The notes: generated by a model not told the origin, from the sequence alone. A stretch of 64,000 nt of DNA from Raillietiella orientalis (GCA_036172245.1 JAYWIR010000036.1:1488001-1552000), one strand, 5' to 3'. Counted from the stretch's first letter, positions 30,193 to 62,434 are shown. Program-made: numbers and translations.

Positions 30193-30223
<31 letters not shown>

Positions 30224-33200
30224 CCTCCCTCCCTCCCTCCCTCCCTCCACTGGTTCGGGATGAGGAAATTTTGGCTTTATTAAATGTCACACGAAGATGG
30301 CTGTGCTCTGTGATTTTGCTCAGCAGCGTCTCTCGGGATTCTGCATGCAAGAAGTACTGCGTATGTGTACTGGCCGATGTCAGTAAGGCGTCTGCAAGAT
30401 TTCATTAGAGAGCACTTGCGCTGATAAAATTCTAACTTTCCGGTTGGCATCCTTGTCAGAGCAATGGAGACTCTCCCTTTGTTTTTGTTAGTAAATGGTG
30501 GATTTTACGTGTTTTTTTTTTTTTCGAATGCTTGACAATATTGTTAAGAAAGGCATTAAGTCCGTCATCCTTGGAAATATTCCGAGATTTTTTGTGTTTG
30601 AGAAAAGTGTGACAGTTGACTTGAAAAATGCTGCTCTAGTAGGTTTGTCATGCAGCAATCCTCAACTGAAGGTGGAACTTAGAAGCCTCCGATGCGGCCC
30701 GCGTGGGAGACCTTGTGGTTGGGTTTCCGCGCGTGGCACCATGCAATCGCGGGTTCGAATACTCCGGCAGAAACTGACGCCACTGCGTCGTTGAGTTCCG
30801 AGTTTCTCCTGCAATGGCGCTGGTTGGCCGAGTCATTCGGGCGTGGCCCCGGCGGTGGTTTAATCCGGAGGCTCCTGATGAAGACCGGAACAGTGGGAGT
30901 CGACCTTCGGGTCCTTCCAGGAATAAAGGAATGGGGAGTTCCCCCTCCTGTCGTGCAACGGAGAGCGGACCCCCGTCACCGGGGGACCGCCTCCGGTTTC
31001 AAGATGGAGCAGGAGCCCTCACGGGCACCTCTCCTTTCTGGTTGTTCAAAGGAGCGGACTCTCCCCGTTGCGGGGGGGACCCTCCGAGTCGTCGCCTCTT
31101 CACAGAGTGTGCACAAGGAAGCAAGCGAGAGCGATTCCCTGCGGGAAGCTGCAGCGCCCCATCTGAGTTTCGGAAGCGTCCCTTCGGGGTTCTCTTCAGA
31201 GGAGGGAACAGGAGCGGTTCCCTTGCGGGTTCCCTTCGGAGAAGATGAAATGGAGAGGACCTCCGGGGGTGTCCCTCCGGAGAGAATGAGAAAGGAGATT
31301 CCCTTCTGGGTTCTTTTTCGGAGACAACCACGCGGAGACCGTAACCACATGGCCTCCGACGCGGTGGCCATGTGGTTACCTGGTTGATCCTGCCAGCCTT
31401 GTCTCAAAGATTAAGCCATGCATGTCTAAATCCATGCCGAAACAAGTCTAAACTGCGAATGGCTCATTAAATCAGTTATGGTTCCCTAGATCGTACAATC
31501 CTACTTGGATAACTGTGGCAATTCTAGAGCTAATGCATGCTTCCAACACTTCGTCCTTGTGGATGGAGGGCTTTTATTAGAACAGGACCAACGGGTTCCC
31601 TTCGCGGAACCAGAAACAAGAGGTTCCCCAGAGCCATTCCAACAATAGCTTTGTAATAACCTAAAATGAATAAATAAAGTTTCCCTCACCCCAGCCCCGC
31701 CCCCTGCCTCCCTTGCGTACGTGTCCGAAATTTTTTTTTGTGCCCACATCCATGGGGAAGAAGTCTGTATGGTTTCGCAGTGCGTGATCCGAACCCGTGT
31801 CGGCCTTTTCCCGCTGCTGCGTCTGCCCTTCTTCACGGTTACTTCCACACTCATTTGTCGACTGGATGTGTTTCATCTCCATAGACGTCGACAAACCGAC
31901 TGACTTTTCTACAGCCGCAGCACTTTCCACATATCCAGGGGAACAGCCAAGTTTCGAGTAACGGAACTCCCCAGTCGGATGAACCGACTTACACCTACCA
32001 CACTTGTTGCATACACAATGTACTTGTGATCGGTCGATCTTGTAAAGTCGTACAAAGCTCCATTTGTAGCTGAAGTGGAAGAATAATCTTGAAAGGCTAT
32101 TTACGAATACCTCGGTGTCGCACCGCAAATCGGGAACATCGAAAAGTACTTTGAGCGTTTCGAAAGTTGTAAATTTCGGTTTCTGTTTGTTTGTTTCTTT
32201 TTTCCAGGGAGCTTTTGACATCGTATGTTTTTGCTACTGGTGCGGCACTGACGACTGCCATTTCTCTGAATTCTCTTGTCAAAGTAAGGTCCATGGGATT
32301 AAAACAGAAATCAAAACTTGATCGCCATGCTAGAGCAAAGCATCTCTCGTGGGCCGGTTTGTTCCATTCGCAGCCGTTGTAGCTGCCAACTGCATCAACA
32401 TCCCGATGATGCGAATAAGGTAAAAATCCATTGCGCTGCGGCTCAAGGAGCAGCCCGTGCGTTAGCGTCCGCTCCGTCTTTCCTCCGGCCCTGGGCCGGG
32501 CACGTCTCCCCAGCTTTCGCTCCGTCGCAGGCCCGTGTCATCCCTCCGGAGCAGCATCCGGTTGCCACGACCCGGACTTTGTGGCGTGGTGCACTTTTGG
32601 TGCCCGCCCAGCCCACCGTGCACAACGTCCTCCTCCGTGGCATCGGCTCGAAGTCGAATCGGGAATTTTCCTTGCTTCCCGGTGCGAGTCCGCCGCACGT
32701 GCGGTCGGTTTCGGGATCCTCGCGATTCCGGATCTCGCACTTTCCCGGTCGCAAGTGGGAAATCCGAGTGGGAAACCGAATTCCGGTGTAGCGAATTGCC
32801 CTGCATGCCCGTCGTCGTCGACTAGCACGAATTCGATACCTCACTGGAATGCCTACCGAACCCTTCCTGAGATCCTCCCCTCATCGATGGAAGGGATGCG
32901 CAGCCCCATCCGTTTATTCGTAGCGGGAAGCGCAGAGCAGCCGACCGAGGGCAGCGCGTGGCGTACAAGTAGTGTTCGGCACCGTACACGGTGTGTGCTG
33001 GAACGCAGGCTGAGCCCTAAGCCCTTCTTCACCTTAGGGCTCATTGTGGGTCAATCGGCTTTAGTAAACCGGGGTTCAATTTCGGGAACGCATGAAGAAT
33101 AAGCCATTCCCACTGTGTTGGTTGGTTGGCGTGGCCTCTCGTTTTGGTGTTGAATTCCGGAAGAGCGGTCGTGTGTTCCGGAAGCAGGTGCGCATCCGTT

Positions 33201-34495
33201 GTTCCATTCCCAGCTTCTACGAGCGATCGAAGTTTCATCTCCACTCGTCCGCCTCGTTTCTTCATGGAACGCGAGGTTCGTGAGTGGAGGACATTAAAAG
33301 GTCCCCGTGCTGTGTGGGGTCTTCGTGATCCTCCGAATTTCGTTCCGATCGACAACTTTGCCTGGGATGGAGGCGCCCACGCACCCTTGCCCACGCACAC
33401 CTTTTTCGTGTTGCCATTCCGGGCCGGGTGGGGTCGTCGTCTTGCCAGTTCACCGGAATCTCCCGGTCGACGTAGCAGCGCTCGTTCGCGTTGCTTCTCG
33501 CTGGCCGTGGGTCGAGCGTGGCAGGCGCGTAGGTTGGGTTCGGTTCGCGAATTTGAGGAGGAAGAGCCGATGCTGCTGACGGCGGGCGAAAAGTCTTCTC
33601 CTTGTCACACCGGAAGCGACGGGGACGTTCCCCCCGTTTTCCTTTTTCGCTGTTGGGCTTTCGGTGACCAGCCGAAGTCGCGCGTGTCGTTTCAAAATCA
33701 GAATAATTCGGATACGCGGTCTTTCGCCGCCGATGACGGAGGTCGCACTCATTTCAGGGAAATTCGGCGCGGAATTCCGGTTCATGATCACCATGGCAAT
33801 CGCCTCGGGAATTCCAGACAGGCAGCCAGAGAAGGGATTTTCATGGTTGTCGTGAGCAGAATTTCCATGGCAGCCCCGGGCATGAGTAAGGACTAACTAT
33901 TGGTTGCAAATAACACATGTGTCATTCGTATGATTGTTGATGATGATTTTTTTTTCTTTTCTCTCGGTCTTTTGCAGTTCTGACTCCCGTGATTATCGAC
34001 GCGCTCTCCCGACGTAAAACGCTGCAAAGGTACCCATGGCTGAACGCTCCTCTGCAGGTACTGCTCTTATGTGGTTTGTTCGCGTTTACCGTGGCCGAAC
34101 GGATTACGTCATCGGATCCGTTGCCTTACATCCCACCCGGAAGCTCCGTCGCGACGATCACCCGTCGTGCGCTCTTGACCGAGCCGTTGTTGCCCTTCTC
34201 AGATCCTGATCTGCGGATTTATCCTGACGTTCACAACCCCGCTGTGCTGTGCGTTGTTCCCGCAAAAGTCTTCTCTTCCCTTAGCCAGAGCGGAAAAAGA
34301 CATCCAGGTTAGTGCGGATGCCAGGGGAAGCGCCGAGTCCACACTTTCGGTGGCTTCCCGGCTTCCAAATCCCGTAAACGGACGTTTTCCGAGGGGCGGT
34401 CGCGAAAACTCGGGATTTCCGTGTGTCCTTTCCAGGAAGCTGCGAAAAACCTGCCTCATCCCGTCACGCACGTCTACTACAACAAGGGGTTGTAG
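25977..34495 (+). CDS. SFXN1: Sideroflexin (SFXN1/3-like mitochondrial inner-membrane carrier), 316 aa. Exons 25977-26122, 27092-27262, 28422-28520, 32208-32283, 32334-32419, 33758-33885, 33978-34057, 34203-34307, 34436-34495
   Basis: The joined exons give 951 nt in frame with GT-AG introns. Family motifs: [95 protein letters not shown] and the C-terminal YYNKGL*. The paralog assignment is approximate. Confidence 0.95.
30192..30247. repeat. (CT)n-(CCCT)n compound microsatellite
   Basis: Directly visible in sideroflexin intron 3. Confidence 0.9.
30688..31376 (+). repeat. Hairpin-rich GC-rich repeat, copy C (candidate rDNA 5'ETS remnant or SINE-like body), abutting the 18S fragment
   Basis: Aligns by eye with the reverse complement of 53576-54050 and of about 62165-62434. 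Contains UUCG-type hairpins (GACC-TTCG-GGTC 30902-30913; CCC-TTCG-GGG 31180-31189) and a B-box-like GGTTCGAATAC at 30752. Confidence 0.7.
31377..31611 (+). pseudogene. 18S rRNA: 18S rRNA 5'-terminal fragment (about 235 nt, truncated and diverged) inside sideroflexin intron 3
   Basis: TACCTGGTTGATCCTGCCAG...TTGTCTCAAAGATTAAGCCATGCATGTCTAA...GCGAATGGCTCATTAAATCAGTTATGGTTC...GGATAACTGTGGCAATTCTAGAGCTAAT matches the conserved eukaryotic SSU 5' end. It lacks about 9 nt of the usual TAGTCATATG and stops within the V2 region. Confidence 0.95.
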
Positions 34496-34695
34496 CCGAT
34501 CCAAGCGACGGGCCGGCGTAGAGTGGGAACCCGTTACCCGGTGGTGTCGAGTAATGCTGGAGTCTGCAGCATGGTCTCCGGATTGGTCGTGGTCACGGGA
34601 ACAAAAACGTCCGCACCCCTTGTGGTACACTTAGACAAATGTAACTGTAACTCTGTTGAAGCTGGATGGTGCTCTCTGTGTGACGTCACTTTGAA

Positions 34696-34701
34696 AATAA
34701 A
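34696..34701 (+). terminator. Probable poly(A) signal of the sideroflexin gene
   Basis: AATAAA about 200 nt downstream of the TAG at 34495. Confidence 0.55.
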
Positions 34702-37688
34702 CCAGGAATGAAAGGGGGAAAAAAGGTGGCGTGACTTTCAAGCGCACTGGCCGAGCGTGTGTGTGAGGGGGGTGGGGGTGGGGGTCGATCTTTCCCCGCA
34801 GATCGAAGTCCTTGTAGTGACGACCAGCTGGCAAGAATTCGGAAAAGAAGGGCGATGGATAACGGCATTCCGACGGTCAAGCCACTCGAGAAAGGAAGAG
34901 TTCCCGAATCCTGGAGGAAATCCATCTTCCGTCTCCTGTCCACGACTTGTCCGTCGGTGGCATCGGCGAGGATGGAGCCTTCGGACAGCAGCAGAATGCT
35001 TTTCCCACCCCCAACTTTCCCGTCTCGCACGCGCGTGCTCTTCGTCCAGCACCCCGGAAGGGATCGTACCCGTGCCAGGTTCGTCGTCCGCGCGCGCGGC
35101 TTTTCCCACCCGCGCCTGCGTTGCCTTCCCAATCGGCCGCCGCGACCCTGTTGCCTTCACGCGGGCCAGGGGGGAGGGAGGGGAGGGACTGCGGGTGGCG
35201 GTTCTCTCTGCACTCCGGGATCGCTTGGCCCGGGGCAACGGTCGCGTCCGCTGGGAGGACGGTGAGGAGGTCGTGTCGGAGGGCGTCCTTGGGCGTCGGC
35301 GAACTTTGCAGGCGCGGAGTCCCCCTGGTTTGATTCCTCGCTCGCCGGCCGGTCGGCGGAAGCCCCCTCAGCCCGCTAGGCTCGTGCTCCGCGGCTCCCA
35401 GGGGCGCAGCTGCTGCGCGCCCCGGAGCTGCACTCCACTCCGGGAGTGACTTTCCGCGGAAGGTGCGCTGCGGAGGTCCGAGGAATGCGCGGAGGCAGCA
35501 GCCCTTCCTCTTTGCCGGAGACAAACGCCGGTTTCCTCAGCACCATAGCGTCACGGGGAGGTGCTGCCGCCCATCGCGTTTCCGTGGCTTCGCGCCCTGT
35601 CTGACCCGCCACGGCGGTGGCGTGGAGCCGTGGTCCGCTTCGCGGTCCGTCACGTCATGGGCATCCACGGTCTGCGTGCTTTGCAGAGCTCTTTGCCTGA
35701 CCGAGTATTGGCGGCGCGGGCAGCCTCCTTGGGATGGGGGGAAGGGAGTGGAATCCTGCGGTGCGGTCATGCTCCCCGACTCGGAGTGTCGATCGGGCCG
35801 GACAGCGGGAAGCGCCCCTCTCCCTGCGGCCGCGTTTCGGGTTTCCAGGACTGCGGTCTGGCCGTTGCTGCAGGAGCGCCTCCGCACCGCCGGGAAGATC
35901 GGGAAGCGGTTTGACCGTGGGACGCTCCTCTAGCCGACCCAGGGGCTGCGGCGGGGTCGCCATGATACTGCGTCCTTTCCCGCATTTTTCCGCGGACTCC
36001 CGGAGCTCAGCAGCCCAGGAGTCCGCGGCAAAAAATTTGTTTCTCTTTCGTCGTCTCTTCCAGATCTTTCACCTCCCCCCCCCTCTCTCTCTCGCGGCCT
36101 GGCTCGAGATAAACATCGGGAAGAAATTTATGGTCGTCGTGGCGCCCGATCCTCCGCCGCGCGGGTCGCTGCCGACGCCCGGCATTCCAAGAGCCGCCCG
36201 CGTCCCCGCCGCCTACGTTTCGCCGCGTTCCGCTTCCGAAAGGGTCGACCTCCCCTCGACGTACGTTCGGGATGCAACGCCCTTTCGGCGGCTACCGCCT
36301 TCCGGAATTTCATTCTTCCGGGAGTGTCCCCATCCTCCGCGCGCACGGAAGATGCACGAAGAGCACCGCCGCTCCAGATGGAAAATCTCGCAAGCTGTAG
36401 TTCTCCTTCCCCCCCACCCCTTTTCCTTTTTCCCCCTTTTCGTGAGTAGGCGCGTTCCTCGATCGAAATGCGCTGTCATGCGCGCCCCAGTCCCCGAGCA
36501 CCGCTGGCCGCCGCCTCCCTTTGCGTTCCTTCCGGTGAGTCTCCGTCGTGGTTCGTCGGCAGCTTGCAGCTGCGACCTGTCCGGACGTGCACGCCAAACA
36601 GGTCGGAGGTTCAGTCGGACGGGAAAGGGGGACTTTCCTACTCAGGGTTGCCAGAACCCTGTCTGGGGAAGACGCAGTGGTAGATGGGACTCTGCCTCAG
36701 CAGCTTGTTCCGGGTCCCCTGGAGGTGCTGCCATTGCACGTTCCACGAAGACCGCGAAAACGAAAAGGCTGTGCGGGGGAGAGGGAGGGGAGGGAAGAGT
36801 GAGGAGGAAGAGGGGCAAGCGCGAGGCTCATCCTTATAATTCCTGCTGCCGCGGCAGCATCCATGTGCGCACGAGGCAGAGGGCTGCGACAGTGGCGCCA
36901 TCGCGCCCTCCTTTCGTGACTGGTCCGATTTTCTCTTTTCGCTGAGCAGTGCTAGATGTCACCCCACCTCTCCCCACTTTCGCGAAAGGGAGGGGTTCCT
37001 GAGGGCCGCTCTCAACATGCGTGGCCTCCTGATCGACAGCAGCAGTTGGTGAGGGAAGGAGGGAGCGTCGAGCCGAATGCACGTGGGCGTGTCTGCCCCG
37101 CCGAGCACCGGTTGCCCCCTCGCAAGTCGGAGGAAACCCCTTGAAAAGAATGGGGGTGCAAAAAAAGAAAAAGAAAGGAAAAGAAGCGCGCGCCTGCGCC
37201 GCTTCTCGTTCGGCGGGAAGGCCCGCACTTCCATTCGCATCAGGGCGCGTGCGTCCTCGCTCGGGCAGCTCGTGCCCAGATGCTAACGGGGACCAAGCCA
37301 ACCCACCAAGGCGCCATGAAGTCTCTTCCGGGTCCGCCGCTGGGCGCTCCTTCCCGCCCCCTGCCCTCCCACCTCTTCCTTTTTTCCGGCCTTTTTTTTC
37401 TTTCCAGTTTCGGTTCCGCGGGGACGAACACTCTTTGAGCTGGTCCCTCTGGCACCCCCGGATGCGCGCAAGAGAGCTTCCGGCAGTCGATCCATCCGGG
37501 GTGACTTCCAAGCTCGCGTTCTTCCGCCGGAGGTCACCGCCCAAGGCAAACCTCTGCTCTCGTGGTCTGCCTGTCTGCAGCCGGGTGCGGACCAGAGAGG
37601 AGGAGGAGGGGGGGGGGGAACAAGGAAAGACTCTAAGGCGCGCTCCCCGCCTCCGCCCCTCGCTACTGGATCCTCCATGGCGATGCTG

Positions 37689-38772
37689 CCATGGAGACGC
37701 CTCTCTTCACTGCTGCCCTCGGGGCATCTCCGGGGAGGAGACAAACTCCTCCCAAACGGGAGCCAGGAGCTTCCCGAACTCGAAAGCAAGGAGACGGTTC
37801 CCGGACGAAAAGGGGCGATCCCTCGACCCAACAGCCCTTTTCCTCCCCTCCCCTCCGGTGTTCCCGTACGGGCAGCTGGGAGGTCAAGTCCGCTTCGACC
37901 TACTCATACCCGTGCTCCCGGCTCCCGGGAGCGGGGAGGAGGAGGCGGGCGCCCGCCATTCCCGATCACCGCTGCGTAGCGTCTCCGGTCTCGGCAGGGC
38001 AGCCGCCCTGGGGCGTGAGACACGGATGCCCGGACGCCCGTAGGGGTGAGGGTTCTTCCCCCCTCCCCCTTCAGGAGGTGGGGCGTGGGCAGCAACATCA
38101 AAAATAAGGCAACTCCTCGGACCAGCAAAAGCGCAACGCGTCGGCAGAGGTTTTTTCCTTCTTATGGGCCGCGCACGCCCGGTCGCGCGAGCAGAGAAAC
38201 TGCCGGAGGCACGAAGCGTCGGCGGTCATGGCCTGAAGATAATGAAACACAGTGATATCTGACCCATCCTATAATTCACGCTGCTGCGGCAGCATCCAGG
38301 AGTCTCTCTCGTAGCGACGGTCGTTAAGCACCGCTCTGCCTACTCGGAGCAGCGTTGCGCCATCGCGCACGAGGGTCGTGAGCTGGCGCAACCCGAGTGC
38401 GCGCGCGCGAGAGAGCATCCCTTGGGGATGACGACGTCTCTGTGTGCGAGACCAGTGCGCGGTGGGGGGAGAGAGAGGGATCTCCCGGGGGATCTCCCAG
38501 CAGCGCTGCTGAGGGACTTCCTGGAGCTTCGAGGCGACGGCGATCACCTGCGGAACGGCAGATCGAGGTGGGCTCGACCTCCCTGCCGCCCGTCCGGGAA
38601 CGCCGGGGGGTAGGGGAGGAAAAGGGCCGTCGGGTCGAGGGATCACCCCTTTTCACCCGGGAACCGTCTCCTTGCTTTCGAGTTCGGGAAGCTCCTGGCT
38701 CCCGTTTGGGAGGAGTTTGTCTCCTCCCCGGAGATGCCCCGAGGGCAGCAGGGAAGAGAGGCGTTTTCATGG
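37689..38772. repeat. Long inverted repeat: arms 37689-37899 and 38562-38772 (about 210 bp each), spacer about 660 bp
   Basis: The reverse complement of the right arm aligns without gaps to the left arm. I count about 19 mismatches and an uninterrupted identical core of about 95 bp (ctgctgccctcgggg...gagacggttcccgg). Confidence 0.92.
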
Positions 38773-40884
38773 AAGCCGCCGAAGAGGGTGGGTCTCCCTG
38801 TCCGGCAGCCGCAGCGGGCGCTCCGGACTGGCGGGCGTTTCCGTCCAGGAGCCACCACCGCAGTCTCTCCCTCCCGCCCTTGCCCTGCAAGATAATGCCT
38901 CAGACAAACCGCGGCGAAGGAGGCTGCTCGCTCTCTCCTCCGGTTGCCTCGGGAGACGGAGTCGCTTTCGCCCCACTCCGCCCTGCCCTTCTCAGCGCCC
39001 CCGTCCGCGGCGTCCCTACCCGTACCGTGGTTGGCGTGCCCGACCACGCCCCGAGCCCACGCGAGGGAGGCCTCCCGCGGCGCTCGTCGCCGGCAAGGCA
39101 GGAGGAACTCAGCTCGGGCTCCTCCTCGTGGCGCGCCGCCACCTCGGACTCGGCCCTCCGCGGTTGCGACGGAGCCGCTCGAACCTGTGGGCGGAAGAGC
39201 GCAACTCTTCCCTGCGGCGAGCGAGAAAGCAGCGGGTTTGTCTCGGAGAAAAGCTACGGGGCAGCACCGGCCCCCTTGAGAGCCCCTCCGTCTCTCGTCG
39301 CTCCCCCATCCTCCGCCGGCTCGCCTCCCTTCCGCGCAACTTTCCCGCGGAAAGGAACGGCGTGCGTGCGTGCCGTGCACCCGCCTGCCGGAGCTCCACA
39401 TTCGCCTGGGGCGAAGGTGGATCCATTCTTGCGTCACTCCGAGCATTCTCTGGCGGCGCGCGCGCAGTTCCACCAGGCTTCCCTTTGGCATGCATGCGAG
39501 GGCGCAGTTGGACTCCTGCGGTGCTGATTAGCCGCAGGACGGCGGTTGATCGAATATCGCCCGGGGTAGGTTATCCCGTTGACTGAGGTGACCTCGGCCA
39601 TTCGCGGCCATCGACAGGGGATCCAGTAGTACCTCAGCTGCGCGGCCTCTCCTTCACTTTCTTTGGTTGAATGCGTTTCGCGCAGTGTGGATGGCATCAC
39701 CCTCCACCCCCTGCCGACTGCCACTCTTCCCGCGTGGTGAACAGTAGATGGACCGATGCGGTCGAGCCTCCCGTGCTACACCCCGACTCGGAATTTCAGT
39801 TCGGCGGGAGCCGTTGGAAAAACCACCTGAAGTTCCGGAAAAAACCGTGGGCTGCCTGTTTGCGCATTGGAGTTTCCGTGAGTCCCTCAGCGGATGCGAC
39901 GACCGCTGTCGAGGCAACAACCGATGACCGCAGCAAAGACGTGAAAGCTCCGGAGCGTTTCAGCAGGTGAAGGGAAGGGATGCAGTTGTGGCTGCCGCTG
40001 CCATCACCGTTGCAGCGAGCGCCACGTGGCACTGCCCCTTGCCCCATCACGTCTGTGCGCGCAGTGGACTGCACAGGTGGTCCCTTAGTCGGAGGTAACA
40101 CTAAAAGCCGGAGCACGAAAAAGGTCACGAAGGATGTGATGGTAGCGGTGGTTATGTGACTCATCGTGAATTGACTGATGGTGACACTGCAAGACTGCCG
40201 AAGAGGGCGCGCCATGAGCGTTGTTTGCTGCGTACTCTCTGCCAAAGACTTCTGCGCATAGAGACCTTCGGGAGGCGCCAACTGTTTGTTCTTCCTCGTT
40301 TCTCGCCTCAGAAAAGATCTGGGACCCGGCGCCACGCAGCAGGGATCGCTACCTTCCGAGCAATTGCAGGATCTGCGACGTACGCAGCCAGCAGTCGCCC
40401 GCAGCCTCCTGCGGACATCATGGCGCCGGATGCACGACAGTCGCAAACGACAGGCTATGCCAAGAGATGAGGCGTTCTTTCATGAAGGAGTGGTGAGTCT
40501 GGATTCGTTGAGGCCGAAGATCGGTTCCCAGAAAAACTGCGCACGCATCTCGCTCAGGGTGTGCGCGTGCCCTCTAGAACTTCTGCCCAGTTTCAACCGC
40601 TCACTCTAAGATTTGATGGTGCACCTCAATCGCCCCGAGAATGGACATTGGGTAAAGGCGAAGACTGCTCTATGGTGATGCCTGCTGTGAAGCTCACACT
40701 TTCAGGAAGTGCTGGAACGATTGAGGCGTCACATGGAGTCAGGACGCTGCGTGCACGTGGCCAACAAGATTGCCTGCGCCATGGCATCGAGAGGGCTACC
40801 CAGCGACGCGCGCTAGAGGGACAATGCATTCAGGTGCAGGGAGCTCCAGTCAACAGCGCCAAAGACCAGTTAAACTTTGCTCCA

Positions 40885-40912
40885 AATAAACTTTTTCGTG
40901 CTTCTGTTTATT
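40885..40912. terminator. Convergent poly(A) signals: AATAAA on + (40885-40890) and AATAAA on - (40907-40912)
   Basis: A short AT-rich island in GC-rich DNA. The - strand signal lies about 1.1 kb downstream of the MRL stop codon. Confidence 0.45.
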
Positions 40913-42004
40913 TGGAATGAGTCCCTTCAGCCACCTCGAAGACTGAACGGATGCAGCACACGTTGACGACAGACGGGCATGTACACTGATTGCACATACA
41001 CAGCTGTGTACGTGCATCGCGGGTAACTTATCTTAGGGCGGCGTCGCAAATATTCGGGGAAGACTCGCCCTTCCGGGGGCGAGTGACAAGTAGACATCCG
41101 ACCAGAAGCTCTACGATGCACAAGAGTGGCCGTCTTCGGGAACTGCGATCGACCGAAAGAGACGCGCACAATCTCCAGCCGCACGGGAGAAGCTCGTGCA
41201 GCCAGAGTCCTGCTTCCGTGGTTCCGGTACAAGCACACCCAATGAATCTCCCGAAAAATGAGGCAGGTCCATCGCAGAGGCGGGTGACCAAAAAGTGGAT
41301 GTGGTTTCGGAGAAGTCGTGGGATCGGACCACGGAAGGAACAAAAGAAAGGCACAGACAGAGTTTTCCGATGGCCCCCGAACCCCTCCTTCCCTCTTTCT
41401 CCCTTTTCTGCTGCTACGGCATACACGCCCGCAAAGTCTTCTCCAGCCGAGGGATGATCCGTTCTATTTCTTCTTCGCTTCTTTGCTCTGGTGAGGGACC
41501 GCGGCCTCTCTACGAGGTGGACAGCTCCATTTCCTCGCCGACAACTCTCGCCCTCTTTCCCCTCCTGAGTAATCATCACCACCACCACCACTATTACTCT
41601 TGGTCGGACATGTGCAAAACTGAACACGCCACCACCTCTTGGGCCGCCGCGCCACTCTTCGTCACGGTGCCGCAATGGCGGGGGAGGGGGGAGGAGAGAG
41701 AGGGGAAGAAAAAAAGGGTGGGCGTGTTGTATCGTGGATCGAAGAGATCAAAACAGGGCGGCGGCAGCAGCAGCCGCTCCGCCACATGGCCAACGACGCC
41801 GAGAAGACGCCCTGGGAGGAGGAGGAGGAGAGGAGGGTGGAGTTGCCTCCCGTTTCCCTGCTTTCCCGAGGCTGGAGGACAGAGCGTCGTTGGTCGTGCG
41901 GCCTCTGACCGAGTGTCATCTCTGTGGGCCTGGATCTCCCCCGCTGCCAGCTCCTTTCTTCCAGCAGCGCGAACCGAGAGGGCTAGCCTTAGGGGAGGAA
42001 GGTA

Positions 42005-45000
42005 TCAGCAGGGGCGCGGTTTGCTCAGCTGTGTGGAATCGTTCCTCCTGGGAGGAGGCGGGGGAGGCAGTTTCTTCGTGGAGGAGCGGCAGGAGTCCAT
42101 CCTGGAGAGGGAGGTAGCCTTCAGCGAGGCGCTGCGTCCGTAGTGCTGCTCCAGCCACTGGTGCACGTTGGAGGAGGAGGTCGTTCCTTTGTCCCCTGCC
42201 GCCGGGGGCGGCGCCTCCGCAACGGCCGCCACGTCCCGGAAGCCGAGGACCTCCTGTGGGTAGGACAGCTCCTCCGCCTTGAGTTTCTGCGCCACCTGCC
42301 ACTTCTTTTGCATCACGCGCTGAAGGTCGTTGAGGAATTGCCTCGGGGGAGCCACGGAAGAGTGCGGGGATCCCAGTCTGCGTGGCTCCTGCACTCCGTG
42401 GGCGCTGAGTCGCCTGAGAGACGTCGACGTCGACGACGGCGGGGGTGGCGGGGGTGGAGGTAAGGTGAAGGCGGCGGCGGCAGCGACAGAGGGATCTTCT
42501 GTCGCTCTGAGAGGCGGGGGAGGGCACGGGGTGGTAGCAAAACCACCGAAGGCGGGGGCAGGGGCAACCGTGATGCCCTCGACGCCGGCGCAAACGCCCT
42601 CGAAACCAGGCGCCCGTGGAAGAGGGCGGGCGTCCTCGGTGAGGAGTTCCGGGGGAGGGGAAGGCAGGGGAACGTGGAGGTCCGGATTTGTGTCCAAGGA
42701 GTCCAGGCTACAGCTGCTGGCATAGACTTCCGGGGGAGGAGGCGGCAGGTCGTCCTCGGGAGGCAGCGGCGGGAAGCCGGGGGTCGCCGGGTCCTCCTCC
42801 CTACGAGCGGCGGCGGCGGCGGCGGCACCTTTCCGCGAGCGGAGGCTGTTGATCTCCTCGGTGAGAGAGCGCCGCAGACCCTGGCGCAGGGACGTGCGGC
42901 ACAGCGTGCCAGACTCGTTCAGGTGACCCTCGATGTGGTCCTCGAGCTCCTGGACGATCATTCGAGTGGTTGGGGTCAGGGGCAGGCGGGCGGTTAGCGA
43001 GGGCTTGCGCTTGATGGTGCCCGTGGGGAAGTCGCTCTCGAAACCGGTGGCGCCGCCGCCGGTGTGCTCGCACACGCTCGACCCGGAGCTCGAAAGGAGG
43101 TTCTCCTGTTCGGAGCACGAGGTGGCTATCGCTGCCGCGGCGGCGGAAGAGGAAGAGGAGGAGGAGGAGGATCTGGGGACCTCCTCGTTCGAGACGAGTG
43201 TGCCGATGCTGCTGGATGAGACGGAGGCCACCGAGAAGCTGCGGATGCTGACCAGCTGGTCGATGTCTTCCTGAGCCAAGTCATCCGTTAGGGTGCGATA
43301 GTTCTCCAGGAGCTGCCTCCCGTGCTGGAAAGGAAGAGGCGGTGGCGGCAGTGCCGAGGGAGAAAAGGGAACCCGGGGGTGGTGCCCTGCCTACCTTCGC
43401 GATGCGGATTCCGGCCACCCATCTCCACAGGGTCTTCTCGTCCTCCGTGCACAGGTACTTGATGCACTTCCCCGATTTGGTCTGGATCTGCGGCTGCTTC
43501 AGCGAGAAGCAGTAGTCCGTGGGGGCCTTGAACTTCTTGCGGCAGCCGACCCCGTAATACACCTGGGTGCTCTCGAAGGTGGTCAGGCAGACGAGGTCCT
43601 TGGAGAGGCGGCTGCGTCCCTTGTGGCAGAAGTACAGCCCAGAAGCTCTCAGCACGAAGTGGCAGCGTTTCCACGCCTTCTTAGCGTCCGCTTTCAGGTA
43701 GAGCATGCCTTCCAGCTCGGGGATCCGAATCCCCGCGCCGCCGAAGCATTCCTGGGGGAGAAGGCAGCGCGGAGGTTGGTGCTTGAAGACGTGGGCGCCA
43801 CGCGCCCGATTGTCCCATGCTTACCTCGATCAGCGCCGCGCGGACCTCGTCTTCCAGGGGCCCACCGGTGTGCAGCGGGGAGAGGTAGTACTCGGGCCGC
43901 AAGAAGAGGTCATACTTGTCGGGCCTAGCCACGAACAAGAGCATGTTCTTGGAGTCGCGGTTCCAAAGCATCAGATTGTCCACAAGAAGCTCGTGGTCCT
44001 CGTAGACGCGCTCTGGGAGGGAAAGAAGCTCCAATCTATTTCCGCGGCCGTCGGCTTACCCATCATCAAGTCCGGCAGATGCTCCACCAAGCTCCAACGG
44101 AGGTCCATCTTCACGTGGTTCTTCTCGCTCAGCAGGCGCGTGACGTAGCCGCACCGCATGTTCTCGTCGACGAGCAGCGACTTGGTGCTGCCGTCGGCCG
44201 AGAAGGTTTTGATGAACAGCCGCTTGATGGTCGCCGAGCGCATCTTCTCCAGAGCCAGGCGTATCTTCTCCGCTTTGATGGCGGCGCTCTGATCGCACTG
44301 AAAGAACGAGATGAAGTCAGCTTAAGGGCTCACAATTCGGACGGGAACTTACTGATGCTCCCGAAGAGCTCGCCTTTCCCGACGACGAGGAGGCGGACGA
44401 CACGCTGATGCCACTGGATTTAGACACGTTGGTGCGATGTCCGCTGGCGCCGCTGGAAGCAGAGCTTTCGCTCGAAAGCATGGACACGTTGTCGGAAAAG
44501 GCAGAATCATTGTCGGGGCTGTCGGTCCTCAACCCTGCAAACACATCCCACGATCACGGGATGGTGGCGCCATCGCGACTCGCAGCTGGTCCACGCCAGT
44601 AGGGACGCTGCATATCCCCAGCCGACCACTCTCCCTGTGCGGGTGCGATCGAGAGGCGGAGGGTTGGCCACAAACACCTTGGGGTCGCCTCGAGCGCACT
44701 ACCTGGCACTGGCCTTTCCCGGCAGCAAAAAACGGTATGCAGGAAATGAGCTCGTACGGTACGCATCGGGCACGAGGTGCCCGTTCGCTCGCACTCGTCC
44801 GCGCTTCTTGTTTAGGGCCGAAGCACGCGCGCGGGCAAAACCTTACGTCAAACGCATCCCCACGCGTCCGGTGAGGCACACCAAGCCAGTCACGAAAGCG
44901 GTCCCAAGGCAAACCCGGAGTTACTGAACTCCTCGAAAGGAGAAAGAGCCAATGCTCCAGGACCGCGCTTCTCGAAATGACAGCGCAGATCGAGGCGGTT

Positions 45001-48000
45001 GAGCGATGCACCGGCTAAGTGATGGCACTCCGTGACGGCCCCGACTCTCGAAGAGGCGGCACCTGGCATTTTTTTTTTCCTGCACAACGCACTCTTCCCG
45101 TTCCTCCTGTTCTGACAGGGGCACAGACTCGGACAACAGCAGAAACCACTCGGCGCCGAAAGCGAGAGCCACCGACCTATGAATCTGATGCTCCTGAACC
45201 TTTCAGCAAAACTGCGAATCCTATACAGGAAACAGTCGGAAGAAAGGAAACTCCCACTGGGAAAAGAAACCATCTTCAGCATCCTTCGCCGCCGTCGCTG
45301 GAACGTTTTTTCCTGGGGATACTTTAAAGAGGCAACCGGCGGGTAACAAGCGATCTGTATCCTGGAATCACCTGTGTACGCTACGCCCGTGTATATCCGA
45401 TAAACCGCGCGCTGTCAAAAGGAGTGTGACCGTGTTTCTTCGATCCATTCTTCCATCCACAATGGCCTTCGTTCAGCCGACTCACCCAACCCCCGCTGAC
45501 AATTCATCTGGAAAAATTCCAGTGCCATGGGTGCACCGGATCTTTTGATCCTCAAACCAGGATTCATGGATTTTTAATTGCTGCTTGAAGAGCTCGTGAA
45601 AGGAAACCCGCTGCTGATGACACCACTCAGACGTTCCATGAAAACAAGGGGTCACAGCAAACACTGGCACTCAGGAGCACAACGCGAAGACATCGTTACG
45701 AGGACAGCAGCCACGCTTTTACTTTGGAAGGAGTACTTGAAGGAGCGCGAACTGGTCCTCTCGTGTTTATACGAAATGCTCGCGTACGGCGAAACAACCT
45801 CGATGGGTTACGCAACGCGTGCTGCATCTGGTTTCATTTAAGAAAGTGTACACCGTTGCGAAATAAACACAGTACGCTGTTGACTTACTTGATCGACATT
45901 TCTGAGATTTTTCTATCTCCTCATCCATTTGATTACCTAATGCCGAGAGCTCTCCTAGAATGGCGTCCAAGTCAACATCCTGCGAATCTGGAAGCAGAAG
46001 AGAAAAAAAAGAAAGGCTTTCAAAATTTTCCCGCATAATTCGTCGAAAATTCAGGCTTCTGTGGAAGCCCAGATAGTTTCGGGAGAAAGAGAGGGAGAGA
46101 CGGGGGGAGGGGAGCTCAATGTGCAGTTTTTGATCAGAGAAATTCAAAGCGACAGTTTTCCATGGATGGAGGCAGTGTGTCCGAAGGAAAAATTGTAAGC
46201 ACGGACGTGTGTACACGCAATGCAACACTTGGAATGTTTCGCGAGAAGCAGCAGCCGATGCAGTTCCTCTGAAAAATTCCTGGGAGTCTTTGACTCGACC
46301 GGTTTACATTACAGCACTCAAGACCGAATGTCTTTTTTTTTTATTATTATTCCGACCGAAAATTGCCAATGGAATCATCGGAAATAATTACTTCGCTGCA
46401 GTTTGCTTTTATGAAGGTAAATGAGTTAACAGGAGCAGCGAGCACCGGATGAGACACGTGCACGTGTTCTCAATTACGGATCAAAACAAAAAGCCTCCAA
46501 AAACACGTGAAGGTAATCGCTGCAATCGGGGAGCACACATTCCTTTGATCATTCGTAATTTGCTTCGAATTTATTCGTGTAAAGATTCACGGTAGGAAAC
46601 ACGCGGTTCCTCTAGCCGCGAAGTGCCTGTGCAGTATGAATTCGCATGGCAGCGTTGGAGATTGTCGCGACTATCGCAAGATGGCAGTGGAATCCTGAAA
46701 TCAGGTTCAGATCAATAGCACAAGAACCTTCCCGGGGGAAGAGCTGTCCCCCTCCCCCCCGCAGCTGGATCGGGAAACCAAAATTCAATCTTTCCCCAGG
46801 ACGTGAACTTGGAAAATCCCGTACACGCTGGAATCTTTCTTTCTTTTGACAAAAAAAAAAAAAAAGGCATGAAAGAAAACGGAACATCACTCTTGTGCGT
46901 TCCTCCTGCCCCTGGGAGAGCTTTCTACGAAACGGTGAAGAGAACCCTTGGCCGCCACTCAAGTCTTTCCAGCTGACTCCTGATGCAGCCAGTTGCTGAA
47001 AACGAGAATTTGGAATACAACAACATATGCTTCAATGGGATCAACTGCTCCGCTCTTGAACGATGCTGTTTACGTGTTTATAGGTTGTTTCAGATGACAT
47101 CTTTTGACAGCCACTTTTCCGCTTTTTTCGTTTTTTCTTTTTTCCTGAAGAAGAACTTGTTTCAGTGCGTTGACCGAAAACCGACTGGAAGTCCAGTTCC
47201 ACTCGTGCAAAAGACTGAAGTCCGTGATTCGTGTGGTGGCATTCCTGCAGTAGTACTTTTTTCGTGTCGAAAAAGGTACACGGTGTGTGGGAACACGCAA
47301 GTTTGGGCAGTGGTGCCGAAATCCCTCACCGTCCAGCCTTCATGGACCGGAAGAAGGAAGAAAAAAAAGAAAGGATAAAACAATTACGCCAGTAAAGTAA
47401 AGGAAGTAAGGAAACCACACAACCGAAGGAGGATCCTGTGTTTGTTTGGGTTTCTTCCTGACTTTTCACTGGCCGAGTTTACCAAACCACACAAAGTCAG
47501 TAACGAGCAATCGCGCTGAAGTCATCATTAAAGAGTTCCGGAGGAATTCTCCGCGGATGTCGCAACCGGCCGAGGGGCCCAAAGCAATCTGTGCGATGAA
47601 CGAGAGCAAGATGGGCCGAAAACAAACCGGAGATTACATGAAAACGGCGGAATTTCCAAAGAGCAACACGAATACTACCCCCGGGGCATTTTCCGAATCA
47701 CGGAGGAAATCTCCGAATTCGTACGGAACCGTCTTCAGCGCGGCGTGTGCAGCGAGCGCCGAAGAGATGGCAGCCCCCTAAACAAAGGGGCTAAGGGCGT
47801 TGGGTGCAAGCCCGGGGGGGTTCCCTCTGCACGCCACTCGGATCACCAGAGGGGGGAGGGGAAGAGGGAGGGGGGAGAAAAAAAAAAAAAAAAGACTGTC
47901 ACACACACGAGAACCATAAAATGCTTTCTTCATCACGGGGACTTAAGCCCGATCATTACCTTCCAGATTGGCCTGTGAAAATCGATAACTATCAATTCTC

Positions 48001-48920: not shown

Positions 48921-48952
<32 letters not shown>

Positions 48953-53562: not shown

Positions 53563-54050
53563 GGGGGGGGGGGGGTACTCCGGGCCACTCCATGAATCCA
53601 GGAAGGCCTCTGCAAGAAGTCCGTCCCGTTCTTGCTCTTCGGAGGGAACCTTTTCCTCATTTTCACCCTCCCGGTTTGTGGAAGGCAAGGGGGATCGCTT
53701 TTCATTTCTTCTCTGGAGGGAAGCGCTCCTGGTTTCCTCCTCTGAAGGGCGCTCCTCGAAGCGTACTTCTCGCACTCTGGAGAGGCAGCTCCCGAGGAGG
53801 GTACCAACCAATTCCATCGTGCGCGATGAATGGGGAACCCCCAAGAGCTCCTTGATTCCTTGAAGGGGCCCAGAAGGGTCAACTTCCAATTCCGGCCAGT
53901 CCATGAGGGCATCCGAGGTTTCCGTCTTCCACCAGCGCCGCACCCGAATAGGCGCATCAGCGCTATCCTGGAGGGGATGACTCGGTATCCACGGCGCACC
54001 CCCCATTTCTTGGTGTCGATTCTTTCCCGGGCGCGATTTAAACCCGCGAC
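53563..54050 (-). repeat. Dispersed repeat, copy A (homologous to 30750-31305), ending in TA + C13
   Basis: Shared blocks with copy C include cttcagaggagg(a/g)aa(c)caggagcg(c/g)ttccct, gcctct..cagagtg and gg(a/g)agt(t/c)gacc...ccttc(a/c)aggaat(c/a)aagga. Confidence 0.75.
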
Positions 54051-60000: not shown

Positions 60001-61841
60001 ACATTCTGTCGCGCGCAGTTCTGTTATCCTGCCGCGCTCTTCGCCCCCTCGCCGTCGTCTTCGACTCTAGCAGATCTCTCCGCTCTCTTTCCCTCTCTCG
60101 GTGGTTGACTAGTGCACGTGCTGAGGGGACAAGAAAGAGGGGAAGGGGAGGGGGAGACAGGCACGCACGCGTGTTGCGTTAAGGGCGATTTGCTTTTGCT
60201 CTTTTCGGGGAAGCAAGCTCTCCTGGGACCAGGAGGCAGATGACGGATGACCTGGCCCCTTCTCTTGCCGGCATTGCCTGCGTCTATCTCCCTCCCCACC
60301 TCGCCCCCCCCCCTCCTCCACTTTCTCTGTCTCCTCCGTCTCTGTGTGCATGTGCGTGCGTGTGTGGCTCGACCCACGTGATGCGGCCGCTGCGCTCGGG
60401 ACCGCAACGCACACGGACAGGTGGTGCGACGACGATACCAGCAGGACGTTACGCGAGACGGACGCAAAGAAAGATGAAGTCCCTCTCTGCCTCCAGGGAA
60501 GCTGCGTTCACGAGCCATGAAGCCGGCAGCAATTTCTTCCCGACATTCGGAAACGAGGTGGAGGGGAACTCCGTTCCCAATAAGGAGGAGATAAGGGACC
60601 TGGGAGGAGAACGGAGGGAGGGGAGAGGAATCTGCCCTCCAGAGGCAGATAACCCCTGTCTCCCACCGAGGCTGCCCAGTCGTGAAGAAACCGTCCCCGG
60701 GCGCGCCCTGGGCAGACAAGGGGAACATCCGCCGTTCGAGATAGCAGGCGAGGCGTGTCGCTCTAGCCGTCACCCGCGTGTCGGAAGTTCCCAGGATCCC
60801 TGGAAGGAGTGCTGGCTGAGCAGAGCCGCTTGTCAGCGGAAAGCTCGTCGCCCGTGGCGGAGGATCATGAGGACTCCATCGCCGCCGATCCTGCCCTCCG
60901 CTCTTTGTCTTCGGGAAAGTTGGCGATGTCGTCTGAGAGGCCCGCCCGTTGCCATGCTGCTGCTCGTGAGCGACGGAAGCGGTCGGTGCTCCTCGCCCGC
61001 GTGGAGACCGCTCGGTGACCGCCGGGCGCCCCAGGTCGGAGTTTCCGAGGCAAAGCTCGCTGTCGCGCCCCGCTGCTTCCTGCCACCTCAACGCTTCCGA
61101 AGCTTCCCACTGCGGTCACGGTATCTCGCCGACCCTCGCGCGCGAGGACGTGGGTAGAAGAATCGCGCGCCGGGGTGTTCGAAGTGGACTACTCGACCGG
61201 CAGTAGGGTGCAGAGGGAGCCGACTTGGCATCAGCTCACGATGGTCAGGGAGGCGAAGAAGGATCGGTCCCTGGCGCCAGTTGTGTTGCCTCGCTGACTG
61301 AAGGCGTCCCTCGCTTCCGTCGCTGGACGGTCCCTACGGGGTCATACTTGGCGCACGTCTTCCGCAACTGTTAACTGGTTTCCTCCGGGTCAGTATCGGG
61401 TTTTTCGATCTGTCCGTCTGCTGTCGTCAGGGTGCGCTCCAAGGCTGTAGCACCACTGCTCGAGTCGCACCAGGCGCCGATTCGTGGGGGGAGGCCCAAG
61501 TGATTTCGCTCCGCCGGCGGCGATGGGAGGCGACTCGCGCGTCTCCGCCACGAGCCACGCCCGCGCCCCCCAGAAGGAAGCGGCGGAAAGCGAAAATGAA
61601 AAAAAAAAAAAAAAAAGACCTTCTGATGTGGTTTACGATCCTTCTCTTTGCGTGGCTTCTTATCTGCTGCGGGATCTGCGTTGCCTGCTGGTTCCTCGGC
61701 CGATGGCAACCGGCCGGGGTGATTGATTGGGTTGCTACCTGAGGGAGCAGCCCTTAGAAACGAGTGGCGGCACAGATAGGCAGCATCAATCGATGACGAG
61801 TTGCGCAACTTTCCCATGTCTCCGCGAGTCTAACCTCTTCG

Positions 61842-62434
61842 TTTTTTTTTTTTTTTTGACTTCTGGGTTTGCGGGGGAGGGGGGGGGGTATCAATCGGTC
61901 CTCACGCGCACATCCCGGCAATCCGTTGCGCGTGCTCGCCCAGCCTCCGGGCTTCCCACCCTTGGCGGCGGCGGCGCGTTTCCGCCGGGATCCCAGGAAA
62001 CGGACGCGCGTTGTCTTGGAAAACGATCGCACCGGTGCTCGGAAGCGGCGGAGGCGTGAGCTGAGGGCGAGCGAGGCGGCCGAGGTCACGTCCTTCCGCA
62101 CCCTCAAGCCGTTCGTAAGGGGACAGATGCCAGCGCGACTCTTCCCGTTCTTCACGAGAGTGACTCGTGCCCGTTGGACCCCACTCCATCCTGCTCGGGG
62201 ATTTTTACAACCGGAGGGAAAGAATCCCGAAGGACTCCTTGGTTTCTGGAAGGGATCCCGGAGGGTCGACTTCCAATTCCAGCCAGTACCACAACCGAAT
62301 AGGCCAACCGGCGCCATCCTGCAGGGGTTACTCGAAACCCACGACGCATCCTTCATTCCTCAGCGTCGGCCCTTGCCCGGGCGGGATTCTAACCATCGAC
62401 GTTCGGTACCAGCCAGGGGCCAGGCGGCGTCGGA
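61842..62434 (-). repeat. Dispersed repeat, copy B (clear homology 62165-62434, weaker towards 61890), followed by TA + C10 and then A16
   Basis: Shared with copy C: tgcgtcgt(g/t)g(g/a)gtt(t/c)cgagt, cctgca..atggcgc(c/t)ggttggcc, ca(g/a)gatggag...acgggcac. It has a 36-nt deletion relative to copy A. Confidence 0.7.

What the first reader, a model, noticed from the sequence alone, without database searches (positions are those of the whole stretch)
30688..62434. Three-copy dispersed repeat family whose 3' end coincides with the 5' end of 18S rRNA (candidate rDNA-ETS-derived mobile repeat)
Seen: the sequence immediately upstream of the intronic 18S fragment (copy C, 30688-31376, +) recurs, diverged and with indels, at 53576-54050 (copy A, -) and about 61890-62434 (copy B, -). 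In element orientation C ends ...GTGGT-TACCTGG (18S start), A ends ...GGAG-TACCCCCCCCCCCCC and B ends ...TTGA-TACCCCCCCCCC followed shortly by A16. Neither A nor B contains 18S. Copy C has many short GC hairpins, several with TTCG loops, and all three copies share a degenerate B-box-like word (GGTTCGAATAC / GGTTTAAATCG / GGTTAGAATCC). Established: the 5'ETS is cleaved from pre-rRNA at the mature 18S 5' end, and SINEs usually derive from tRNA, 5S or 7SL RNA. Inference: either (i) the excised 5'ETS RNA has been retro-copied and amplified as a SINE-like family, or (ii) a tRNA-headed element is associated with the ETS/18S junction. Three copies in 64 kb hint at a high genomic copy number. The shared TACC terminus is tentative because C/G runs are common in this region.
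Basis: partly seen in the sequence, partly recalled or inferred. Interest (0 to 1): 0.78.

Follow-up and report, generated by a model that had tools for sequence, protein, structure and literature searches.

The report
SINE-like repeat interrupted by 18S scrap
Three worn copies of a non-coding, hairpin-rich jumping element lie in this animal DNA, and in one copy a 300-base scrap of 18S ribosomal RNA sits between the element's body and its tail, so this looks like an ordinary retro-copying accident and not a new element born from the ribosomal spacer.

Summary
An 18S 5' fragment lies at about 31377-31683 (+), in an intron of a sideroflexin gene.

About 220 nt upstream of it (30741-30960) is significantly similar to 54050-53830 (-) and 62400-62215 (-). 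Copy A also shares a second, colinear block with C. Copy B shares only the core. No fourth copy was found in the window.

The shared 5' edge is a tRNA-like T-arm. A and B run into TA + C13 or C10, and B then has A16. In C, the 18S piece sits between TAC and a 30-nt C-rich tract. That is where A and B have their C-run.

I read the three as SINE-like retroposon copies. C carries a reverse-transcribed 18S 5' piece, either captured inside it or fused to it by template switching, with up to 4 nt (TACC) of ambiguous overlap.

The idea that the 690 nt is the 5' ETS, and that the family derives from the ETS, gets no positive support. It cannot be excluded, because no genome, rDNA unit or sequencing run was reachable.

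Earlier notes of this scan, which are unchecked, describe the same kind of hairpin-rich SINE-like family and other 18S chimeras elsewhere in this genome.

Interest is low to moderate.

The parts
30688..30740 (+). Copy C, GC-rich 5' segment not shared with A or B. Positions 30696-30737 are an inverted repeat of 31328-31369.
   Evidence: Heads are unrelated between copies (654/1000, 343/1000 and 681/1000 shuffles score as well). The inverted similarity between the 5' and 3' ends of C has z 7.2, 0/1000.
30741..30960 (+). Copy C, core shared with A and B. It starts with a tRNA-like T-arm and B-box-like word (GGTTCGAATAC at 30750-30760).
   Evidence: SW z 17.5 against A and 13.3 against B, 0/300 shuffles. 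nhmmer C-A E 2.4e-7. Alignments.
30961..31340 (+). Copy C, body of short GC hairpins with purine-rich linkers. Block 31145-31304 is colinear with A 53792-53643.
   Evidence: nhmmer E 1.1e-3. SW z 7.8. One module pair lies 40 nt apart, 31179 and 31219. Fold z -4.47.
31341..31379 (+). Copy C, terminal hairpin with 18-nt arms (94% complementary) and a 3-nt loop. Its last 3 nt (TAC, 31377-31379) are also the first 3 nt of the 18S reading.
   Evidence: the repeat finder pair I2. Fold of 31300-31385 gives z -4.5, 0/200 shuffles.
31377..31683 (+). 5'-terminal fragment of 18S rRNA. It starts within 0-4 nt of the mature 5' end, has a 9-nt deletion after CCAG, and its end is uncertain between about 31658 and 31683. 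It ends in an A-rich stretch, about 31659-31676.
   Evidence: Rfam SSU_rRNA_eukarya: from model position 4 at 31380; to model position 307 at 31683.
31682..31713 (+). C-rich tract directly after the 18S piece. It is a candidate for the element's C-run tail resuming.
   Evidence: It is one of only 8 tracts with >=21 C in 30 nt on the + strand of the 64-kb window. My arithmetic gives about 0.005 for one starting within +/-20 nt of a given point; this is post hoc. Alignment to the tails of A and B is not significant (74/500 and 51/500).
53821..54050 (-). Copy A, core.
53578..53820 (-). Copy A, body. Block 53792-53643 is colinear with C. A lacks about 190 nt that C has.
   Evidence: Global alignment of the tails gives z 2.1, 4/300.
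53563..53577 (-). Copy A, TA followed by C13.
62181..62400 (-). Copy B, core.
   Evidence: nhmmer A-B E 1.6e-21. blastn 73% over 119 nt and 80% over 66 nt.
61891..62180 (-). Copy B, 3' part. It contains hairpins but does not align to A or C.
   Evidence: 94/300 and 209/300 shuffles as good. One search lists hairpins.
61842..61890 (-). Copy B, tail: TA + C10 (61890-61879), about 21 nt, then A16 (61857-61842).

Best explanation
C, A and B are three diverged copies of one non-coding, SINE-like retroposon family. The family has a tRNA-like T-arm at its shared 5' edge, a variable body of short GC hairpins, and then TA, a C-run and an A-rich tail.

The roughly 690 nt before the 18S fragment is a copy of this element. 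It has not been shown to be ribosomal spacer.

In copy C, a reverse-transcribed 5'-terminal piece of 18S rRNA (about 280-305 nt, run off at or within 4 nt of the RNA's 5' end) was captured inside the element. It sits between the last body hairpin and the C-rich tail. Most likely this happened at a break or nick, with TAC(C) microhomology, and without the usual target-site duplication or long poly(A).

Shown: the homology, its limits, the T-arm, the tails of A and B, and the C-rich tract after the 18S piece.

Inferred: that the element is a retroposon, that the C-rich tract is its tail, and that the 18S piece came in as cDNA.
For: 1. Core homology is significant in all three pairs, and there is a second colinear block for C-A.
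2. The majority consensus of the shared 5' edge reads as variable-loop end, T-stem GCGGG, loop TTnGAAT, T-stem CnCGC, then CCGGGCA. That is the 3' third of a tRNA (alignments).
3. A and B both have TA + C-run on the element strand, 473 and 510 nt after the core start. Only 5 runs of C>=8 exist on that strand in 64 kb. By my arithmetic each has about a 0.006 chance of falling in an 80-nt span. B then has A16.
4. In C the 18S piece starts where the C-A alignment places A's TA + C-run: 72 nt (C) against 66 nt (A) after the last aligned block.
5. A C-rich tract, one of 8 on that strand, begins directly after the 18S piece.
6. The 18S piece begins at a natural RNA end and stops at an A-rich stretch about 300 nt in, as a run-off cDNA would.
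7. TAC at the junction belongs equally to the element's terminal hairpin and to 18S. This is microhomology.
8. Leads only, not evidence: earlier notes of this scan describe a 0.75-0.9 kb hairpin-module SINE-like family, and 18S-SINE, U2-U6 and U6 chimeras, elsewhere in this genome.
Against: - No tRNA is detected in any head. ARAGORN at default settings finds 0 in the window. Rfam finds no tRNA at E<=10 in three 141-nt searches. Hits at relaxed ARAGORN thresholds are noise: 134 and 373 hits in the window.
- The 65 nt upstream of the T-arm are unrelated between copies, so a full Pol III head is not shown.
- No target-site duplication of 8 nt or more was found for A or B. The candidate for C does not exceed background.
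- The C-rich tract after the 18S piece does not align significantly to the tails of A or B, and its rarity estimate is post hoc.
- B shares only the core.
- C keeps a strong fold (z -4.47) while A and B do not. That would also fit a fresh copy of a structured spacer.
- Copy number and a consensus for the family could not be obtained here.
Confidence: 0.5

Rival explanations
1. One-event chimera. A LINE reverse transcriptase started on an 18S rRNA fragment near nt 300, ran to the RNA's 5' end, jumped to the element's RNA at its UACC, and copied the body. Element and 18S piece would then have arrived together.
For: - The junction is at the exact 18S 5' end, in the same orientation, with up to 4 nt of overlap.
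- C's element part looks as little decayed as the 18S part: fold z -4.47 against -0.20 and +0.54 for A and B.
- LINE-made chimeras with rRNA fragments are described in mammals (bioRxiv 10.1101/2025.02.02.635956; passages read).
- As a lead only: other chimeras were noted in this genome.
Against: - There is no poly(A) and no significant duplication around 30688-31683.
- It leaves the C-rich tract right after the 18S piece to chance, about 0.005 by my post hoc arithmetic.
- The jump would have to land inside the element RNA, upstream of its tail, and not at its 3' end.
Confidence: 0.2
2. The 690 nt is the real 5' ETS, C is a recent copy of the ETS-18S junction, and A and B are old copies of an ETS-derived mobile RNA.
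For: - There is direct continuity into 18S nt 1.
- The length and GC-hairpin build are compatible with a spacer, and the fold is strong.
- A and B share a common 5' edge, which could be a processing site.
- The 18S V2 insert shares a 13-nt word with C's body: z 2.3, 29/1000.
- No ETS- or 18S-derived SINE is listed in Table 2 of the 2024 review PMC10946416 (section 11 read), so the reading would be new.
Against: - A tRNA-like T-arm lies at the shared edge.
- A and B include TA plus a C-run, and B an A16 tail, beyond the supposed cleavage site.
- The 18S is cut at about nt 300 and followed by a C-rich tract like the tails of A and B.
- Only 1 of 3 copies has 18S.
Confidence: 0.12
3. DNA-level patch. 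A piece of rDNA itself, not cDNA, was used as filler when a break next to the element's terminal palindrome or C-run was repaired.
For: - There is no duplication and no long poly(A).
- A strong 18-nt-arm palindrome lies at the junction.
- As a lead only: a similar reading was given for another 18S 5' piece in this genome (note e1-7590621).
Against: A random rDNA fragment would not be expected to start at the mature 18S 5' end. No spacer sequence distinct from the element precedes it.
Confidence: 0.08

Closest known systems
tRNA-related SINEs (head, body, tail; the SINEBase definition, recalled and not read here)
   Same: Non-coding and dispersed. A tRNA-like T-arm or B-box word lies near the 5' edge. 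The body is of unknown origin. One of the 3 copies has an A-rich tail. The copies are diverged and lie in introns or non-coding DNA.
   Different: No A box or full cloverleaf is detectable. The region 5' of the T-arm is not shared between copies. At 0.5-0.7 kb the element is unusually long. There is a C-run before the tail. No duplications were found.
Endonuclease-independent (non-classical) LINE-mediated insertions at DNA breaks (Sen et al. 2007, PMC1920257; passages read)
   Same: The inserted retro-sequence has no target-site duplication, no proper poly(A) and a 3' truncation, and shows microhomology at a junction.
   Different: Here the inserted RNA is 18S rRNA and not a LINE, and the host site is inside another repeat. 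No pre-insertion allele is available to prove the event.
Chimeric retrocopies made by LINE RT template switching, such as U6/L1 and 28S/L1 (bioRxiv 10.1101/2025.02.02.635956; passages read)
   Same: Two unrelated RNAs are joined head to tail in the same orientation, with one junction at a natural RNA end.
   Different: The described chimeras carry the LINE or poly(A) part at the 3' side and are flanked by duplications. Here the 3' part is an rRNA fragment, with no significant duplication.
rRNA-derived SINEs: 5S-derived SINE3 and relatives, and SINE28 from 28S (review PMC10946416, section 11 and Table 2 read)
   Same: An rRNA-derived module lies inside a SINE-like unit in copy C.
   Different: In those families the rRNA module is present in all copies and defines the family. 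Here it is present in 1 of 3 copies.

Membership tests
tRNA-derived SINE | tRNA-like head with Pol III A and B boxes | tested here: inconclusive
   The consensus of the three copies gives a canonical T-arm and B-box word. However, ARAGORN at default settings finds 0 tRNAs. Rfam finds no tRNA at E<=10 in 3 of 3 head searches. The 65 nt upstream are unrelated between copies.
tRNA-derived SINE | A-rich or LINE-related 3' tail | tested here: inconclusive
   B has A16 33 nt after TA. A has only A9 about 140 nt downstream. C has none. TA + C-run is shared by A and B.
tRNA-derived SINE | Target-site duplications flanking copies | tested here: not met
   No exact repeat of 8 nt or more for B, or 9 nt or more for A. 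The candidate for C, at 30581 and 31724, is not above background: 82/1000 shuffles and 19/54 real-sequence controls score as well. Decay of old copies could hide duplications.
tRNA-derived SINE | High copy number, dispersed | not testable with these tools
   There are three copies in this window and no fourth by nhmmer. No genome is held. Earlier unchecked notes report such a family in other windows.
rDNA 5' external transcribed spacer | Lies directly upstream of 18S in functional rDNA units | not testable with these tools
   No genome, no sequencing runs listed, and two metagenome scans were empty.
rDNA 5' external transcribed spacer | Continues into a complete 18S gene at this locus | tested here: not met
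   The 18S stops at about model position 263-307 of 1831. The locus is an intron of a sideroflexin gene.
rRNA-derived SINE (SINE3 or SINE28 type) | The rRNA-derived module is shared by the family's copies | tested here: not met
   1 of 3 copies carries 18S. A and B downstream regions against C's 18S: 65/300 and 115/300 shuffles score as well. Rfam finds 18S only at C.
LINE RT template-switch chimera | Whole chimera flanked by one duplication and ending in poly(A) | tested here: not met
   There is no long poly(A) after the 18S piece, only an A-rich 18-nt stretch. No significant duplication.
Endonuclease-independent cDNA capture at a break | No duplication, no poly(A), 3'-truncated insert, junction microhomology, host sequence continuous across the insert | tested here: inconclusive
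   The first four features are met. Continuity of the host element is suggested only by the C-rich tract after the insert. It is not supported by alignment, and no empty site is available.

The most novel reading that the evidence does not exclude
The 690 nt really is the species' 5' ETS. The abundant hairpin-rich SINE-like family of this genome would then have taken its body from pre-rRNA spacer, which would make it the first ETS-derived retroposon family. C would be a fresh ETS-18S retrocopy that still shows the parent structure.
Probability: 0.1. Interest if true: 0.75.

Novelty: new member of a known kind. Interest (0 to 1): 0.3.

Why it matters
If my reading holds, this is one more example of reverse transcriptase scattering rRNA pieces into an invertebrate genome, here into a copy of a resident SINE-like repeat. 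It is useful mainly for annotation: the 18S scrap and its upstream sequence should not be taken for an rDNA unit or for spacer.

It would matter more if the spacer reading proved right. No SINE derived from the ETS or from 18S appears in the 2024 review table I read (PMC10946416, Table 2). Such an origin would also explain where the odd hairpin-module body of this abundant family came from.

Tried and rejected
NO OUTSIDE SEQUENCE COULD BE REACHED
- Whole genome: none is held.
- Sequencing runs: none was listed for 29800-32600, so read laying could not be used.
- Two metagenome pattern scans, one on the junction and one on an 18S-specific word: 0 matches each.
- Earlier-findings look-up by sequence for C and for the junction: nothing.
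- The search for homologous proteins with the sideroflexin exon peptide: no hit.

18S IN A AND B
- By eye I thought the regions downstream of A and B held decayed 18S. Alignment against shuffles rejected this: 65/300 and 115/300 shuffles score as well.

CODING READING
- The open frames over C (234 codons) and A (341 codons) have no Pfam family and are not similar as proteins, best E 0.15.
- 150 of the 194 frames of 62 codons or more in 44-64 kb were scanned: 0 families.

tRNA HEAD
- ARAGORN at default settings finds 0.
- Relaxed thresholds give in-register hits at C 30688-30772 and B 62444-62371, but also 134 (75% threshold) and 373 (65% threshold) hits in the window, so these are noise.
- Rfam finds no tRNA in any head.

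OTHER CHECKS
- Tandem Repeats Finder on C: 0 rows.
- My perfect-stem hairpin count did not separate the copies from shuffles.
- Target-site duplications: none for A or B. The C candidate, TCCGAGATTTTTTGTG against TCCGAAATTTTTTTTTGTG, is not above background.
- The tail after C's 18S piece against the tails of A and B: not significant.
- A cheap-gap alignment was too permissive to use as evidence.
None of the listed titles or read passages describes an ETS- or 18S-derived SINE.


Full report
WHAT IS THERE

The window is eukaryotic, with an animal-type 18S. I could not determine the species. No whole genome is held, no sequencing run was listed, and two pattern scans of metagenome contigs were empty. 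Everything below therefore rests on the 64-kb window, a few papers, and unchecked leads from earlier notes of this scan.

THE 18S FRAGMENT IS REAL

- In a 3-kb search the Rfam eukaryotic SSU model matches from 31380 (model position 4), at 49.9 bits against a gathering score of 50, E 9.3e-12. The alignment of the first ~220 nt is near-perfect apart from a 9-nt deletion after CCAG.
- In the whole-window search the match is 31475-31683, reaching model position 307.
- At gathering score nothing is reported.
- TAC at 31377-31379 fits the usual animal 18S start (recalled), so the piece begins within 0-4 nt of the mature 5' end.
- It ends between about 31658 and 31683, in an A-rich stretch.
- It lies in sense orientation in an intron of a + strand sideroflexin gene. 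Exon matches to PF03820 flank it at 28381-28518 and 32206-32313.

THE REPEAT FAMILY IS REAL BUT NARROWER THAN DESCRIBED

- blastn finds only the A-B pair.
- Smith-Waterman against 300 dinucleotide shuffles gives, for the core (C 30741-30960, A 54050-53830, B 62400-62215), z 17.5 (C-A), 13.3 (C-B) and 30.1 (A-B). No shuffle reaches the observed score.
- nhmmer adds a second block colinear between C and A, 31145-31304 ~ 53792-53643, E 1.1e-3. A therefore lacks about 190 nt of C's body.
- B's 3' 290 nt match neither A nor C.
- The flanks, and the 65 nt upstream of the core, are unrelated in every pair.
- A profile of the core finds no fourth copy in the window.
- The open reading frames over C and A are a composition effect. 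They have no Pfam family and no protein similarity.

WHAT THE SHARED PART LOOKS LIKE

- The common 5' edge, taken as the majority of the three copies, reads GTC-GCGGG-TTnGAAT-CnCGC-CCGGGCA. That is the variable-loop end, T-arm and acceptor strand of a tRNA (alignments).
- This is the hallmark of Pol III-type SINE heads, and it is hard to place in a Pol I spacer.
- The rest of a tRNA is not detectable. ARAGORN at default settings finds 0 in the window. Three Rfam searches of 141 nt each find no tRNA at E<=10. Hits at relaxed ARAGORN thresholds are at noise level.
- C's body is a chain of short GC hairpins with purine-rich linkers. One module pair repeats at 40 nt.
- C folds far better than shuffles, z -4.47. 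A and B do not, z -0.20 and +0.54. C is thus much less decayed, or closer to its source.

THE 3' ENDS

- A and B both run into TA plus a C-run (C13 and C10) on the element strand, 473 and 510 nt after the core start.
- The window has only 15 runs of C>=8 on both strands, and 5 on that strand. Two such runs at matching positions are unlikely to be chance.
- B then has about 21 nt and A16, which looks like a retroposon tail.
- For C against A, the last aligned block ends 72 and 66 nt before TAC and TA respectively. A global alignment of the last ~150 nt is marginal, z 2.1, 4/300. The 18S piece in C therefore starts where A has its TA + C-run.
- The new point is a 30-nt C-rich tract (31682-31713) that begins directly after C's 18S piece. 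It is one of only 8 such tracts on that strand in 64 kb. By my post hoc arithmetic the chance is about 0.005.
- The simplest reading is that the element's C-rich tail resumes after the 18S piece, so the 18S is an insert inside the element and not what the element runs into. This is weakened because the tract does not align significantly to the tails of A or B.

THE JUNCTION

- C ends in a strong hairpin with 18-nt arms (94% complementary) at 31341-31379. Folding 31300-31385 gives z -4.5.
- The hairpin's last three bases are the TAC that also starts 18S. Up to 4 nt (TACC) are therefore ambiguous between the two partners, as at microhomology-mediated joins.
- No target-site duplication was found for A or B. 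C's candidate (30581 and 31724) is not above background: 82/1000 shuffles and 19/54 real-sequence controls score as well.
- There is no long poly(A).

MECHANISM

My best reading (0.5) has two steps.
1. A SINE-like copy sat in the intron.
2. A run-off cDNA of the first ~300 nt of 18S rRNA was captured between its body and its tail, at a break or nick.

The scar has no duplication, no poly(A), a 3'-truncated insert and junction microhomology. This matches what Sen et al. 2007 set as criteria for endonuclease-independent L1 insertions (PMC1920257; passages read).

The rivals are these:
- A single-event template-switch chimera (0.2). It fits the equal freshness of both parts. It also resembles the LINE-1 chimeras with 28S and 5S fragments described in bioRxiv 10.1101/2025.02.02.635956 (passages read). 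It leaves the C-rich tract to chance.
- A DNA-level rDNA filler (0.08).

THE ETS HYPOTHESIS

For it:
- exact continuity into 18S nt 1;
- a plausible length and a strong fold;
- a common 5' edge in A and B that could be a processing site;
- a 13-nt word shared between the 18S V2 insert and C's body (z 2.3, 29/1000).

Against it:
- the tRNA-like T-arm at the shared edge;
- TA, a C-run and an A16 tail lying beyond the supposed cleavage site in A and B;
- 18S present in only 1 of 3 copies;
- the C-rich tract after the 18S piece.

The decisive comparison with the true rDNA unit could not be made.

EARLIER NOTES OF THIS SCAN (UNCHECKED LEADS)

- Eight notes describe, on other DNA of the same genome, a 0.75-0.9 kb tRNA-headed SINE-like family with about 40-nt UUCG-type hairpin modules and purine-rich linkers, at 3-5 copies per window.
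- Other notes describe an 18S-SINE chimeric retrocopy, an 18S 5' domain inside an inverted repeat, U2-U6 and U6 chimeras, and Tx1-like LINEs that land at one site in that SINE.
- These notes moved me towards the SINE-like reading.
- What I could test here fits it: the hairpin build, one 40-nt module spacing, the T-arm, and the tail in B.
- What I could not test: the full head, the duplications and the copy number.
- The look-up by sequence found no near-identical stretch.

NOVELTY

The 2024 review of rDNA and transposable elements lists 5S-derived SINEs, SINE28 from 28S and the IGS repeats of Pokey. It lists no ETS- or 18S-derived SINE (PMC10946416, section 11 and Table 2 read).

On my reading the finding is a new member of known kinds: a SINE-like family plus an rRNA retro-scrap. 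It would be new only if the spacer reading proved true.

UNEXPLAINED

- C's first ~50 nt are absent from A and B, and they are an inverted repeat of C's last ~42 nt (z 7.2, 0/1000).
- The three copies share no sequence 5' of the T-arm.
- B's 3' part is not alignable, although it ends in the same TA + C-run.

Noticed in passing
window 30696-30737 and 31328-31369: The 5' end of copy C is a roughly 42-nt inverted repeat of its 3' end (z 7.2, 0/1000 shuffles). A and B lack this 5' segment. It could be a panhandle in the RNA, a terminal inverted repeat, or a rearrangement scar.
   Followed up: partly
window 31592-31604 and 31226-31238: The 13-nt word CGGGTTCCCTTCG occurs both in the variable V2 insert of the 18S fragment and in a hairpin module of C's body. 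The local alignment is only marginal (z 2.3, 29/1000).
   Followed up: partly
window 25986-34346 (+): A sideroflexin gene with at least seven small exons matching PF03820. One exon, for profile positions about 171-196, was not found.
   Followed up: partly
window 37685-37901 and 38776-38560: A 217-nt inverted repeat pair at 91% identity, about 660 nt apart. This is possibly a foldback or an element with terminal inverted repeats.
   Followed up: no
window 14000-22000 and 34000-46000: Long blocks of 60-67% GC, open in many frames. Frames of 180 codons or more in both blocks, and + strand frames of 33 codons or more up to 37 kb, gave no Pfam family apart from the sideroflexin exon at 34179-34631. 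The neighbouring DNA is 30-35% GC.
   Followed up: partly
window 21300-21551: A diverged tandem repeat with a unit of about 55 nt, 65% identity over 200 nt.
   Followed up: no
window 30192-30248: A (CCTC)14 microsatellite 440 nt upstream of copy C.
   Followed up: no
window 30581-30596 and 31724-31742: TCCGAGATTTTTTGTG and TCCGAAATTTTTTTTTGTG are the only two matches to that word pattern in the window, and they bracket a 1.1-kb block holding C, the 18S piece and the C-rich tract. As a target-site duplication this is not above background.
   Followed up: yes
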